Source: an uncultured Methanosarcinales archaeon (lineage in GTDB: Archaea; Nanobdellota; Nanobdellia; Woesearchaeales; GW2011-AR9). Taken from it: a DNA stretch of 64,000 bases. Below are positions 1 through 64,000 of this stretch, in pieces (within the stretch, counting starts at the first letter, position 1; each line of letters starts with the position of its first letter). Location of the stretch: positions 596,705 to 660,704 of the forward strand of contig CAYFJV010000001.1 in assembly GCA_964343575.1 (NCBI GenBank), written 5' to 3'. A program made the position numbers.

Positions 1-3000
1 GGAACGATCATAAACCCTTGAGGCAAGTAGGAGTCCTGTTGCTCTTGTTCGTTCTCCGAGGTCTCCCACTTCCCAAGCATCTCTCATGATTTCGCTAAGC
101 GCATCTGTTCGATACCGGGGTCCTAGTGCCAAAGCACCATCCATTCTCTGATTAAGCTCAGATTTTTCTTCCCCTGGAGGATTCATCAAACTAAAAAGAT
201 TTTTCATTTGTTGCATCACCTGTTCTCATTAATGACACCACAAAGAATAAACACACCATTTCTTGCAAAAGTTAGTTTCTATTTAAAGCTTGCTTAGAGC
301 TTTTTTTCTTTTGGACAGGTCTGCTACACAGTTTTATCCAAAAAATTTATAAGTGGCTTCTTGAGGTTTGGCTGGGCAATGGCACAAACAGCGTATATTG
401 GAAGACGCGGGAATCGTTACACAATACATTTCAGAGCCCCAGGTAAAGAGGAACTTCAAGTTATAACTGGAAGTGATCTTGGTGCAGTTGTGGCACAAAT
501 GGGAAAAGTATCGGGAGGAAAACCTGTTGACATGCTCCCTTTGAAAAGAGAAGGAGATTATCGCCCCCTTGGACTTTTAGAAGAGCTATCTTTACGGTTG
601 ACTTTGTATGCTCAAAGTAGATGGGGAGAAAACTGATTTTCTCTTTACCCTACTGTCTAAAATTTCTGAAGAACAAAGTCAAGGGATATATGCTTAAAAT
701 ATTTAAAGAAGCAAATTTGCTACGTTCTCATGTTCAAAAAGGTGCAAAATATTTCTTTACTCGGAGCACATGATCCTGTAGCTGATATCTTTTTACTCAA
801 AGAGAAGAAGGGAATTCAAGATTATGCCAGCGGAAGTAAGTGGCGCTTTGGACTTCGAGTTGGAGATGCCAGTGCAGAGCTGGATTTAAAGTATTGGGGC
901 AATGAAAACAAAGAGGAAATTGCTGCACTTTATGATGGTCTAGAAGTCGGTGATGTGCTTTTTGTGCAAGGAAGAGTTTCTGAGTTTAATGGAGTGCGTG
1001 AGATTAGTGTGAACCATGGAAGTGGCGCTATTAAGCGGCTGAAAGTAGGAGAGTTTGCTCCAGATGCTTTTTTGAAAAAAGGGAAGAAAGATGCTGAAGC
1101 ACTCTTTGGGAGAGTATTATCTCTTATCGAAGAGATTAAGGATGAAGAATTTAGAAGGATACTTCAAGCCTTCTTTCATAACCAAGAGTTTGCTGCAGCG
1201 TTTAAACTAAGCCCTGCTTCTTTGTTTCGTCACCACAATTATTGTGGAGGTTTGCTTGAACATAGCTTGAGTGTTGCAAAAATCTGTTTAGATGTTTCCT
1301 CTCGAGAGAAACGTTTAGATAAAGAGCTTTTGATTTGTGGAGCTCTTTTGCATGACATTGGAAAAATTCCTTTCTTTAAAGTTCGTGAAAGTATCGAAAT
1401 TTCTAAGCAAGGGCAATTGCTTGGTTCAGTTGTTTTAGGTTTAGAACTCTTCTCTGAGAAAACAAAAGATCTAGGCATAAGCTCTGAGAAAGATATGAAG
1501 CTGCGGCACATTCTAGCCAGTTCTTTGGGTAGGAAAAGTTATGGTGCTGCGAAGCAGCCAGCTAGTAGCGAGGCCTTGCTTATAAGTCATGCTAAGCTCT
1601 TGGATGCGAAGGTGGGCCAGATGCTCGATGTCAAAGAATCTGCACTTGCAGAAGATGCGGAGAAATTTTTCTATCATAAAGATTTTGGGAACATCTTTTT
1701 AGAATAAAGATTTGGCTGAAGGATTAGATCCAAAGTGCAGGAGCATTTCCTTCCTTTTGTTCTACGTCCCAAAAGTATTCATTATTGTAATACATCCAGG
1801 TCTCTTCCACTGGGAAAGGAACAAACTTGAAGTACTGGTAAGGAACATCTTGAGCTTGGTGCAGTGTTCTCGTTGTTTCATCGTAATAAGCTCCGGCTGT
1901 TGCATCAATTGGAAACCAGATGCCATCTTCATAAATTTCTACCCAAGCATGGCCTCCAATTTCTCCTCCAAAGTCAACTAGGCCGAGGGTTACTCGTACA
2001 TGTTTAGGATCCATGCCATCAGCGATGAGCACAGAAGCAAGAGTGTTTGCCTGCTCAGAACAATCACTGGCAATACTTCCAGGCGCAGGATTGCTGTTAA
2101 GATCGGGAGTTAAGGTGAGAAAAGCTTGTGGGCGATACCAAAACTCAATTACTCCATTAAGCGTTTGCTCAGAGACCCAGACCCATTGCAAAGCTTCGTC
2201 ATAAGCTTGCTGAACACCATTAATGTTTTTTGCAATATCATTTACTGCAGGAGCGTTTGGTGTGACATAAAGTTGGTAAGGAGAAATTACTTTTGGGTCC
2301 TCATCATAATCAATGTTTTCCTCTTCTAAGTACTCAGTAACTCCCTCTTCATCTGAAATATCTTGATACTGGATACTCTTTTTTGCTTCATGCTCTTCTA
2401 CAAATGCTTGTAAGTCTTCTTGTAAGTCTTCGCTTAAAGAGGGAAGAATCTCTTCAAGCTGCTGCGTTGTTGCAATTCTTCGCACACACTCATTTTCTCT
2501 TAGTGCAAGAAACTCTTCTTGATTTGCTGTTGTCTGGATAATTGTTGTCTCTTTAAAGATAATTTCTGTGTCTATTGGCCTTGTGATTATTTCATGGAAG
2601 TTACAATTGCTCTCAAACTGAATAACTATGGACATGGTTGGCAGCACAGTTGTACAAGAGAGAATGAACAGACTTAGAAGGGTAAGAAGAAAAATCTTGA
2701 AGAGTTTTGCTCTTAGCATGAAGAACGGTGTAAGATATGCTTCTTTAAATTATTTGCTTTTCTTTAGGAAGTTCTCAGAGAGAGAAGAAGCCACAGAAAA
2801 CTATTTTGTAAAAGGTAGAAAAAGGTAGAAATATCAAAAGAGTGGCAAAAGAAAGAAAAAGCATTTAAATAAAACCAGTCTCTTTTCAGAGTTATAAGGT
2901 GTTCTGTCTTTCTTAGAGCAAGTCAAAGATGAGTACCAAGAGAGGATAGGAGAGGAATAGTAAAGAATGGTGTTTGAGGTTGTGTGCATTGGTTCGTCCA

Positions 3001-63000: not shown

Positions 63001-64000
63001 AGGAGGATTAAATCATGGCAATAACTAAAGTTGGAAGACAGCAACTTCTTCAAGCTTTGAATAGTCAGATCACTCATTTTGCTTTGGGAACAGCTCAAGA
63101 CACCGATAATGAGTTTGCTACTTCACTCGGTGCTGAACAGTTTAGAAAACCAGTTACAGCCAAAACTGTTGAAGAAGACACTAATAGCATTGATGTTGAA
63201 TGCTTCATCGGATCAACTGAAGGAAACGGTAATGATTTCAGCGAGTTAGGACTGCTTGATGCACCTAGCGGAGGGAGCCTGTTTGTGATCACGAACTTCC
63301 CTCCAGAGACCAAATCATCGCTCTTAGAGTGGTTGATAGATGTCGTGATTGAAATAAAATAATATTAAGAAAAAAATAGGATGGTGATACTATGGCCTAC
63401 GAAATCAAGAATAACGAAATTGCTTTTGCACCTGCTGTTGAGAATATCAACCGAGGACACAGGATTTTTGGAGTGAGTGACGAGAATAGTCATGAAGTTA
63501 TACCTTATCAAGATATGATTCTGCAAATACCTAGTGCTGGTCAGGTATGGATTAATGATGTGAGAAATGTTTGGCTTGATAGCGTTCAGGATAATTTTGA
63601 AGCTGGTGTTAGTGATTGGGAGACTAGCGGTCAATCAGCAGTGAGTGAAGAAATTTCTATCGTTCAAGAAGGAACAAAAGCTATGAAAATGACGTGGACT
63701 CATGATGGTCTTACTCAATTTGATAATCGAATTTTAAAGAAGTACAACACTATAGATTTCAAGTACAGGAATAAGTTAATCTTTTATTTCTATCCAGTTC
63801 TTGCTCTTCAAGATGCATTATATATTAGATACAGGAATAATAACAGCGAGTTTACCCTAGCTCAAGTTAATCCACTTGATGTAACTGCAGGTCAATGGAA
63901 TCTTATTGAGATTGATTTGCCAGCATCTGATGTGCAAAAGAACAAGTTCCAAGAACTTATCTTTGAGTTTGATGGTTTGCAGTGGACTGGTGTAACTCAT

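What a model noticed while it worked through the whole genome (the two positions that open the first line are those of the whole stretch)
1..64000. Single-sign strand asymmetry around the whole chromosome: no ori/ter skew switch
The chromosome can be ordered C1(+) -> C4(-) -> C2(+) -> 16S/23S rRNA operon -> C1(+), and along this whole 1.17-Mb circle one and the same strand is G-rich (and T-rich). After separating the effect of gene direction, the strand component of GC skew is modulated in two blocks (about +0.2 from C2:116 kb to C1:200 kb, about 0 to +0.1 elsewhere) but does not change sign, so the usual origin/terminus sign switch is missing. The same holds in two other genomes of family GW2011-AR9, one of them a single 1.47-Mb contig in which the A/T component does switch sign twice. 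The pattern therefore looks like an ordinary two-replichore signal riding on a chromosome-wide G/C strand disparity that is indepen [...]
Evidence so far: Exact 55-nt end overlaps join C1 end to C4 end (reverse) and C4 start (reverse) to C2 start; C1 starts 256 nt before the 23S gene on +; the last 56 nt of C2 are positions 1-56 of archaeal SSU rRNA on +, cut by the contig end (Rfam 38.7 bits, E 1e-7, call 117). Strand component (mean of skews of + and - genes on the + strand) is +0.03..+0.11 in 28 of 30 40-kb windows and about 0 in two. At four-fold degenerate sites it is positive in 18 of 20 evaluable 60-kb windows (-0.008 at C1:300-360 kb, -0.06 in the last 5 kb of C2); intergenic DNA has GC skew +0.06..+0.18 in all 20 full windows of C1 and C2. 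40-kb profile along the joined circle: +0.15..+0.28 from C2:116 kb through the rRNA junction to  The finding spans contig positions 1 to 665018; this window holds only 596705 to 660704 of it. [...]
(Added by a program. Inside this text positions count along the whole contig: contig position 596,705 is position 1 of the stretch shown here. "Call 12" and the like, gene names such as g00115 and contig names such as C1 are that model's own, and its searches are not shown. The text may have been shortened before it was handed on; [...] marks where a part breaks off. The agent that wrote the report below was given it as the finding of a first reader that could run no searches.)

Follow-up and report, generated by a model that had tools for sequence, protein, structure and literature searches.

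The report
Chromosome-wide strand bias in tiny archaea
In this ultra-small archaeon and some of its relatives, one DNA strand stays chemically different from the other all the way round the chromosome, on top of the normal origin-to-terminus pattern, which points to an unexplained process that treats the two strands unequally.

Summary
Real. On the joined 1.17-Mb circle the + strand stays G/T-rich after gene direction is removed. The four-fold-site GC component is +0.235 in one arm and +0.049 in the other (AT -0.204, -0.068). The arms are ordinary replichores: a canonical oriC-cdc6 lies in a ramp, a sharp step lies opposite it (C1 ~180 kb), and genes and rRNA face away from oriC. So an ordinary two-fork signal rides on a whole-strand offset. 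The two signals differ in codon-context spectrum, and the GC half-step (~0.09) equals that of a relative without offset. Corrections: the offset includes A/T, and it is not family-wide (2 of 3 family relatives switch normally). Among 11 long-contig relatives, 3 show it clearly, 5 do not and 3 are unclear. 15 of 46 cdc6 loci show strong unswitched bias, scattered on the tree, in either direction relative to cdc6. Closest precedent: CPR bacteria (Kadnikov 2020); nine searches found none for archaea. This scan earlier noted 'no switch at oriC' in other Woesearchaeota. The cause is not shown; the best guess is an occasional one-way, strand-asynchronous copying mode (0.4).

The parts
1..64000 (.). 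The window (C1:596,705-660,704) lies in the weak arm, where the + strand should be lagging and C-rich but is still slightly G-rich. The other parts of the feature lie outside the window: oriC at C2:94,576-95,364 (inverted ORB-like boxes at 94,584 on - and 95,125 on +, AT-rich middle), cdc6 at C2:93,373-94,575 (-), mcm at C2:97,221-99,242 (-), the sharp step at C1 ~180 kb with a XerA-like tyrosine recombinase at C1:186,853-187,686 (+), and the LSU rRNA at C1:253-3110 (+).
   Evidence: Raw GC skew positive in 15 of 16 4-kb bins; arm values; oriC; MCM; recombinase; rRNA
1..28800 (.). Host DNA of the weak arm (housekeeping genes such as FEN1-like XPG, fibrillarin, class I tRNA synthetase, aldolase). 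It carries the offset: four-fold GC +0.06 and AT -0.13 at joined 600-620 kb.
28884..64000 (+). Head-tail provirus, continuing to the C1 end and probably through most of C4 (ends not mapped). Not part of the bias mechanism, but it is the stretch where the A/T sign appears to fail with a fixed gene-direction term, and the contig joins pass through it.
   Evidence: Terminase 35794-37263, portal 37611-39674, capsid 48040-48846, tape measure 55484-59602, tail 59979-62540; AT +0.07 to +0.13 at joined 620-680 kb; with its own gene-direction term GC +0.055 +/-0.045, AT -0.055 +/-0.024

Best explanation
Two strand-asymmetric mutational processes are added together (about 0.75 for this description). Process 1 is inferred from anatomy and composition: ordinary bidirectional replication from one oriC-cdc6 to a terminus near C1 180 kb, making each leading strand G/T-rich. 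Process 2 is shown as a pattern, and its cause is inferred: something acts on one physical strand along the whole chromosome, whatever the fork or gene direction. The mechanism I commit to (0.4) is an occasional one-way, strand-asynchronous way of copying the chromosome (rolling-circle-like, strand-displacement or recombination-started). It always displaces the same strand and leaves it single-stranded long enough to take extra damage such as cytosine deamination. A small share of such rounds could give a large offset without erasing the two-fork signal. The polarity cue would lie outside the oriC cassette and the rRNA operon, the mode would be gained and lost quickly, and the repair set (for example NucS) would shape which bases end up skewed.
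For: Offset and arm signal have different spectra: proportionality is rejected in G000 (chi2 187), G056 (579) and G265 (206), df 27. The null genome G084 has no offset (chi2 29 at k=0). Arm-signal vectors are alike across genomes with and without offset (cosine 0.82-0.89 among G000, G056, G084; norms 0.41-0.53). The GC half-step is 0.093, 0.089, 0.089 and 0.139 in G000, G056, G084 and G265, while the GC offset is +0.14, -0.30, +0.03 and +0.16. Intergenic GC has offset but no arm step (+0.103 vs +0.095). The offset is continually re-imposed: orthologue orientation between G000 and sampled G056 genes is scrambled (51 same, 46 opposite), yet each genome is nearly single-signed. Within arms the offset-bearing skew is patchy and the arm-bearing skew uniform (G056 excess SD GC 0.11 vs AT 0.03; G265 AT 0.13 vs GC 0.02), as expected if inversions flip strand identity. 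The bias reaches amino-acid use (Val +0.19, Thr -0.18, Gln -0.19 log ratio) and is not carried by a polar word (k = 4, 6, 8). The G/T-rich signature in G000 is that of exposed single strands (recalled mitochondrial pattern; ssDNA deamination is stated in PMC7111523). In G354, the strongest case, the arm step is absent, as heavy use of a one-way mode would predict.
Against: No initiator for a one-way mode was found: 0 of 5 genomes for PF02486, PF01446 and PF07232, and only the first had a control that rang. The replisome genes checked (one Cdc6, MCM, PolB) do not differ between genomes with and without offset. Signatures differ widely (keto in G000, G/C only in G056 and G354, A-rich in G265), so one damage chemistry does not fit all. 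The A/T half-step is not conserved (-0.07, -0.165, about -0.14, -0.03). In G354 the GC arm contrast has the reverse sign (from 2 left-arm windows), and proportionality is not rejected there (chi2 33.5, with k at the grid edge). In G000 offset and arm vectors are still similar (cosine 0.90), so one process with mixing is a fair first approximation for this genome alone. No step is seen within 10 kb of cdc6 in flagged loci (GC -0.01 +/-0.04, n=18) or unflagged ones (-0.01 +/-0.05, n=34), so short loci cannot show that oriC is active. No reads or polymorphism data were obtained.
Confidence: 0.4

Rival explanations
1. Identity-based non-random strand inheritance. Replication is always bidirectional, but a host-attached mother cell keeps the sister built on one particular strand (Watson) and sheds daughters with the other. 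One strand identity then transmits more ageing damage along lineages, while the number of leading and lagging copying events is unchanged.
For: My toy lineage simulation: identity-based segregation puts 0.70-0.86 of transmitted ageing time on one strand (4-8 daughters per mother; 0.46 with 2) with equal W-to-C and C-to-W copies. That predicts an additive offset with an undiluted arm step, as seen for GC. The only strong published parallel is in another group of ultra-small symbionts (PMC7143001). Non-random strand segregation exists in E. coli (PMC8379921, passages). SMC matched in 30 of 33 genomes.
Against: The E. coli type is age-based, and in the same simulation it gives no offset (0.50). 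No identity-based system is known to me. No chiral anchor was found: the biased strand is not tied to cdc6 or rRNA direction. SMC is in 15 of 15 offset and 15 of 18 other genomes, so it does not discriminate. It does not explain the missing arm step in G354. A mother-daughter life cycle is assumed, not shown, for this lineage.
Confidence: 0.2
2. Transient relic. A whole arm was recently inverted, or the lineage recently switched between bidirectional and unidirectional replication, and composition is still relaxing.
For: In G000 the weak/strong ratios for GC and AT are similar (about 0.25), gene direction in the weak arm is only mildly biased (44% +), and offset and arm vectors have cosine 0.90. 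The trait is labile on the tree (15 changes vs 15.1 shuffled). G318 and G322 are mosaics that look like incompletely ameliorated inversions.
Against: Proportionality is rejected. In G265 the arm values do not lie on a path between an equilibrium and its mirror (GC +0.30/+0.02, AT +0.28/+0.34). About a third of sampled cdc6 loci would have to be caught mid-relaxation. G354 is single-signed at 0.17-0.65 in 20 of 20 windows. rRNA is co-directional with bidirectional forks in 5 of 5 genomes.
Confidence: 0.2
3. Part-time or full unidirectional theta replication by the normal replisome from oriC (the mechanism proposed for the CPR case), with direction set by the origin.
For: Fits G000 numerically, with about 60% of weak-arm rounds copied by the rightward fork. 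Fits the missing step in G354. Proposed for Ch65 in PMC7143001 section 3.4.
Against: It predicts the same spectrum for offset and arm signal, which is rejected in 3 genomes. It predicts a fixed sign relative to the oriC cassette, but sister taxa have opposite signs (L119 vs L132; L171 vs L142). ORB-like boxes in both orientations remain in 14 of 18 offset loci (23 of 34 others). rRNA lies on the G-rich strand in 2 of 4 offset genomes and on the C-rich strand in 2.
Confidence: 0.1
4. Frequent cell-to-cell transfer of one defined chromosomal strand as single-stranded DNA (Hfr-like), followed by recombination.
For: It would add a strand-identity offset without touching replication, and could be gained and lost with a mobile element. 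The genome has 5 tyrosine-recombinase matches.
Against: A gradient away from a transfer origin is expected, but both G000 arms are nearly flat. Conjugation genes were not searched.
Confidence: 0.06
5. Artefact of assembly or gene calling.
For: Draft genome; the joins pass through a provirus; the 16S gene is unassembled; gene calls are from my own simple model; neither single long contig tested shows a terminal overlap (G056, G265).
Against: Both arms and the step lie inside contig C1. Flipping one arm would still leave +0.235 against -0.049. No long inverted repeat was found (one 1.1-kb direct repeat at 93%). The same code gives ordinary switching or no skew in G084, G111, G114, G207 and G298. 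The effect is in intergenic DNA and in single contigs of 1.47, 1.30 and 0.64 Mb.
Confidence: 0.04

Closest known systems
Chromosome-wide G/C disparity of CPR order UBA1400 (Ch65, Ca. Collierbacteria, Ca. Beckwithbacteria; Kadnikov et al. 2020, PMC7143001; section 3.4 and passages read)
   Same: Cellular chromosome of an ultra-small organism with one G-rich strand throughout, balanced gene numbers per strand, and a relative in the same order with an ordinary pattern.
   Different: Bacteria, not archaea. Larger disparity (29.8% C vs 15.0% G, against 21.5% G vs 18.1% C here). No A/T trend there, whereas G000 is also T-rich and G265 A-rich. In the parts read, the paper reports no underlying two-arm step and proposes unidirectional theta replication. 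Here the arm step, gene direction and rRNA direction show bidirectional forks underneath.
Single-origin bidirectional archaeal replication (Pyrococcus-type oriC-cdc6-polD; DPANN example Ca. Forterrea, PMC5905446, passages read)
   Same: One cdc6 beside inverted ORB-like boxes around an AT-rich stretch; compositional change at oriC and at its antipode; genes and rRNA face away from oriC.
   Different: The skew does not change sign, because of the added offset.
Bacterial genomes labelled 'rolling circle' by skew shape (Chen et al. 2020, PMC7111523, Table S7 read: 31 genomes, all bacteria) and true rolling-circle plasmids
   Same: Cumulative skew without a sign change.
   Different: That label comes from raw cumulative skew, and the passages read do not separate gene direction from strand. 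No Rep initiator was found here (weak test), and an origin/terminus modulation is present.
Strand-displacement replication of animal mitochondrial DNA (recalled; PMC4182315 seen as search listing only)
   Same: One strand G/T-rich at four-fold sites whatever the gene direction; magnitudes in some relatives reach 0.6-0.7.
   Different: Megabase cellular chromosome with a canonical bidirectional origin; arms flat rather than graded in G000; spectrum varies between lineages.
Ancestral-strand retention by E. coli MukBEF/MatP (PMC8379921, passages read)
   Same: Shows that prokaryotes can segregate template strands non-randomly.
   Different: It is age-based, which by my simulation cannot bias Watson against Crick.

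Membership tests
Single-origin bidirectional archaeal replicon (Pyrococcus type) | One cdc6/orc1 next to inverted ORBs around an AT-rich unwinding element | tested here: met
   1 Cdc6_C match; boxes at C2:94,584 (-) and 95,125 (+); the only intergenic gap >=350 bp with >=85% A+T in 100 nt. The ORB consensus is recalled and was tuned.
Single-origin bidirectional archaeal replicon (Pyrococcus type) | Skew changes sign at origin and terminus | tested here: not met
   GC +0.235/+0.049, AT -0.204/-0.068
Single-origin bidirectional archaeal replicon (Pyrococcus type) | Two equal arms, with genes and rRNA co-directional with the forks | tested here: met
   Arcs 573 and 596 kb; 60.6% vs 44% of genes on +; rRNA 5 of 5 (for G354 the arm assignment is inferred from the C4-C2 join)
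Single-origin bidirectional archaeal replicon (Pyrococcus type) | Physical demonstration of two forks (read depth, Okazaki fragments) | not testable with these tools
   No run was listed
UBA1400/Ch65-type chromosome-wide strand disparity | G/C excess on one strand around the whole chromosome, not due to gene direction | tested here: met
   Raw GC skew positive in 30 of 34 C1 and 25 of 25 C2 20-kb windows; corrected values
UBA1400/Ch65-type chromosome-wide strand disparity | No A/T disparity and a near-linear cumulative curve | tested here: not met
   T 32.3% vs A 28.0% and a two-level profile; relatives G056 and G354 come closer
Rolling-circle replicon | Rep nickase-initiator | tested here: inconclusive
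   0 of 5 genomes for PF02486, PF01446 and PF07232; controls rang only for PF02486; other Rep and relaxase families not searched
Rolling-circle replicon | Uniform skew without origin/terminus modulation | tested here: not met
   Step at C1 ~180 kb and ramp at oriC
Rolling-circle replicon | Double-strand and single-strand origins | not tested
   No search made
Unidirectional theta replicon | Leading strand fixed by origin orientation, one spectrum throughout | tested here: not met
   Opposite signs relative to cdc6 in sister taxa; spectra not proportional in 3 genomes
Mitochondrial-type strand displacement | G/T-rich displaced strand | tested here: met
   G and T up, C and A down in all codon boxes on the biased strand of G000; not so in G265
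Mitochondrial-type strand displacement | Gradient of skew with time spent single-stranded | tested here: inconclusive
   Arms nearly flat in G000; G354 is highest near cdc6 and lowest near 800 kb of the C4-C2 join
Age-based ancestral-strand retention (E. coli) | Able to bias one strand identity | tested here: not met
   Simulation gives 0.50

The most novel reading that the evidence does not exclude
Woesearchaeales (and, convergently, some CPR bacteria) have a life-cycle step that tells Watson from Crick along the entire chromosome. This is either identity-based inheritance of one template strand by the host-attached mother cell, or a stage in which one defined strand of the whole chromosome is displaced, passed on or stored single-stranded, alongside normal bidirectional replication. 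It would be a chromosome-scale exception to intra-strand parity in archaea and a new mode of prokaryotic chromosome handling, switched on and off between sister lineages.
Probability: 0.3. Interest if true: 0.9.

Novelty: new variant of a known kind. Interest (0 to 1): 0.72.

Why it matters
Cellular chromosomes are expected to obey intra-strand parity overall, because the two replication arms cancel. A 2026 survey states that this held for the archaeal chromosomes it used (PMC12999951, Discussion part 1 read; the text has no mention of DPANN, Woesearchae- or Nanoarchae-). Here the cancellation fails although a canonical origin and two arms are present. That means a strand-identity process exists that standard replication and transcription models do not contain. 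Sister lineages with and without it, and the split into offset plus arm step, make the cause testable by comparative genomics and read data. It also reopens the unidirectional explanation offered for CPR bacteria. Practically, GC-skew shape should not be used to reject assemblies or place origins in these archaea.

Tried and rejected
Read-depth test at oriC: no sequencing run was listed, so no reads were laid. Polarising substitutions with the nearest relative found (L102, 92% Cdc6 identity): four-fold identity 0.41 over 971 sites, near saturation; abandoned. Polar sequence motifs (Chi/KOPS-like): no 6- or 8-mer skewed beyond Markov expectation in both arms; same-sign minimum |z| at most 2.6 for k=4, 2.1 for k=6, 1.8 for k=8. 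dif-like inverted repeat near the recombinase: none with my 11-6-11 filter over C1 160-215 kb. Provirus att repeats: only two 15-16-nt matches at implausible places. Gene content against presence of the offset showed no link. UDG: 13 of 19 flagged (G318 counted as flagged) vs 21 of 37 others. On 15 offset and 18 other genomes: PolB 33 of 33, HhH-GPD 32 of 33, NucS 8 of 15 vs 9 of 18, strong MutS (E<1e-70) 3 of 15 vs 7 of 18, SMC 15 of 15 vs 15 of 18. The 33-genome panel left out 3 weakly flagged genomes, G318 and 19 unflagged ones of the 56, and completeness is unknown for most. Polarity set by the oriC cassette or by the rRNA operon: rejected. Second origin explaining the ramp: one extra ORB-like box at C2:100,123 and one inside a gene at C2:71,151, neither paired around an AT-rich gap. 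Family-wide or inherited trait: rejected.
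Full report
Method. I laid the genome (6 contigs, 1,214,974 bases), called 1,296 genes with a self-trained dicodon model (88.8% coding), and split skew at four-fold degenerate sites into a gene-direction term and a strand term R measured on the + strand. Relatives were sampled as 10-20-kb regions and treated with the same code. The names DP1, DP2, TBP and XerA-like rest on recalled sequence features and gene order; only the tyrosine-recombinase family was tested.

Exact 55-nt overlaps give C1+, C4-, C2+. LSU rRNA starts at C1:253 and the SSU start ends C2, both on +. The joined 1,168,974 bases have G 21.5, C 18.1, T 32.3 and A 28.0%. R for GC is positive in 54 of 59 20-kb windows, none significantly negative, and R for AT is negative in 56 of 59. 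Without the provirus the two arms are GC +0.235 and +0.049 (se 0.009), AT -0.204 and -0.068 (se 0.005). Intergenic GC skew is +0.10 in both arms, also between convergent and divergent pairs. Mis-orienting an arm cannot produce this, since both arms and the step lie within C1 and the magnitudes would stay unequal.

The two blocks are replichores. The single cdc6 adjoins a 789-bp gap with inverted ORB-like boxes around the most AT-rich intergenic stretch of the genome. The sharp drop at C1 ~180 kb lies opposite, giving arcs of 573 and 596 kb, with a tyrosine recombinase at 187 kb. That location is not shared by the best-scoring recombinase in G084 or G056. The rise near oriC is a ramp, as it is in the ordinary relative G084. 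Genes are 60.6% on + in the arm to the right of oriC and 44% in the other. The rRNA operon is co-directional with a bidirectional fork in 5 of 5 genomes, though it lies on the G-rich strand in only 2 of 4 offset genomes.

Relatives with long contigs (11 examined). Clear offset in three. G056: GC negative in 20 of 22 windows, AT switching at cdc6 and near 330 kb. G265: AT positive in 15 of 15, GC stepping from +0.02 to +0.30 at cdc6. G354: GC 0.17-0.65 with no sign change inside any of four contigs, 20 of 20 windows, 870 kb joined by a 141-nt overlap. No offset in five: G084 and G111 of the same family, which switch near cdc6, and G114, G207 and G298. Unclear in three: G318 (GC positive in 9 of 12) and G322 (negative in 8 of 11) are mosaics, and G140 has AT positive in 5 of 6 windows.

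Survey at cdc6. 15 of 46 had |R| above 0.15 and above 3 se, up to AT 0.73 and GC 0.59. The three offset genomes were flagged and the three ordinary ones were not. The dominant component had the same sign on both sides of cdc6 in all 15, though near zero on one side in L142 and L166. For most of these loci a strong ordinary arm with the origin elsewhere cannot be excluded; G318 shows that arm values can reach 0.6. On a Cdc6-DP1-DP2 tree the 18 flagged tips need 15 changes against 15.1 for shuffled labels, and sisters have opposite signs relative to cdc6 (L119/L132, L171/L142).

Two processes, not one. In a two-by-two design (gene on the biased or other strand; leading or lagging) over 28 codon-box contrasts with gene bootstrap, the strand-identity effect is not a multiple of the leading-strand effect: chi2 187 in G000, 579 in G056 and 206 in G265 (df 27; best k at the grid edge for G265). 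G084 has no identity effect (chi2 29). The leading-strand vectors of G000, G056 and G084 agree (cosine 0.82-0.89), and the GC half-step is 0.093, 0.089 and 0.089, with 0.139 in G265. Against this neat picture: the AT half-step varies from -0.03 to -0.165, the two vectors in G000 have cosine 0.90, and G354 shows no normal GC step. Gene orientation is scrambled between G000 and G056 (51 same, 46 opposite), so the offset is re-imposed faster than genes are inverted. The offset-bearing skew is the patchy one within arms. No polar word carries it, and it reaches amino-acid use.

A post-hoc link to repair. Presence of the offset did not track any of the gene families tested (see Tried and rejected). 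Its spectrum may track NucS. Among 18 flagged genomes, the 9 with NucS have |AT|/|GC| of 1.35-8.4 and the 9 without have 0.14-1.38 (Mann-Whitney p 0.0006). This was noticed after the fact, kin are not independent (perhaps two or three independent contrasts), absence in drafts is uncertain, and NucS-negative G318 reaches AT -0.63 (with GC +0.52). It suggests that the offset starts as mismatches or lesions that repair then filters.

Mechanism. Shown: the pattern, its split into two parts, and its spread. Inferred: bidirectional forks. Not shown: the cause. I rank an occasional one-way, strand-asynchronous copying mode first (0.4), because exposed single strands mutate fast enough for a few rounds to matter, and because the strongest case has lost its arm step. 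No initiator was found, in a weak search. Identity-based strand inheritance by a host-attached mother also yields an additive offset in my toy simulation, while the E. coli age-based type does not (0.2). A relaxing relic gets 0.2, unidirectional theta by the normal replisome 0.1, strand transfer 0.06 and artefact 0.04.

Literature. PMC7143001 (passages and section 3.4) reports a chromosome-wide G/C disparity in three CPR genomes and proposes unidirectional theta replication. It is the closest precedent and keeps this from being categorically new. PMC7111523 (passages; Table S7 whole; Table S8 and the Methods supplement not read) lists 31 bacterial genomes with a 'rolling circle' skew. PMC12999951 (passages and Discussion part 1 of 2) says parity held in its archaeal set. 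PMC5905446 (passages) shows an ordinary switch at cdc6 in a DPANN genome. PMC2780954 was seen as abstract and outline, PMC8379921 as passages. Nine searches listed no paper describing this in archaea. The library lacks most subscription journals, and supplements of preprints were closed, so an archaeal mention in a skew table could have been missed. Earlier notes of this scan saw no switch at oriC in other Woesearchaeota and in this genome; some concluded that the origin is probably not where the arms diverge, which the arm analysis here contradicts for G000, G056 and G265.

Verdict. A real, non-artefactual, whole-strand compositional offset added to ordinary bidirectional replication, found patchily across an archaeal order, with a bacterial precedent and no established cause. 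Interest 0.72; new variant of a known kind.

Noticed in passing
window 28,884-64,000, on to the C1 end and C4: Head-tail provirus of about 55 kb in a Woesearchaeota-type host: adenine methylase, terminase, portal, capsid, 1,372-aa tape measure and tail genes, with two weak tyrosine-recombinase matches on C4. No att repeats found.
   Followed up: partly
G000:C3 (L224): The unplaced 35-kb contig has all genes on one strand and encodes a portal with Mu-F domain, an SU10-type major capsid protein and a DNA methylase: a second virus or provirus piece, probably not a missing part of the circle.
   Followed up: partly
G000:C2:100,123 (-): A single well-formed ORB-like box in the gap upstream of the TBP-like gene, 5 kb from oriC; possibly a regulatory Cdc6 site.
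   Followed up: no
G056:C1:1,085,001-1,097,000 (L221), 525 kb (L009) and 1,275 kb (L019): Pockets where the G/C offset is lost or reversed while A/T keeps the arm sign; candidates for recent inversions or insertions. An integrase match lies at 1,281 kb.
   Followed up: partly
G318 and G322 (one genus): Very strong (GC +0.52, AT -0.63) and mosaic strand skews, with one clean arm and one scrambled arm in each.
   Followed up: partly
loci L119, L132, L138, L154, L179: Four-fold A/T strand terms of 0.54-0.73, a size I associate with mitochondria (recalled) rather than cellular chromosomes.
   Followed up: partly
G000, G056, G084, G111 and others: In the 33-genome panel a strong MutS match (E<1e-70) and NucS co-occur in only 1 of 10 MutS-positive genomes (G364, weak NucS match); the two mismatch systems look largely exclusive.
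   Followed up: no
G000:C2:140,790-141,934 and 145,156-146,300: A 1.1-kb direct repeat at 93% identity, the only long repeat found in the genome.
   Followed up: no
window 730-1707 (+) and 26,317-28,590 (-): An HD-domain protein with a weak TraI_2 match, and a 757-aa Ig-repeat surface protein just before the provirus.
   Followed up: no
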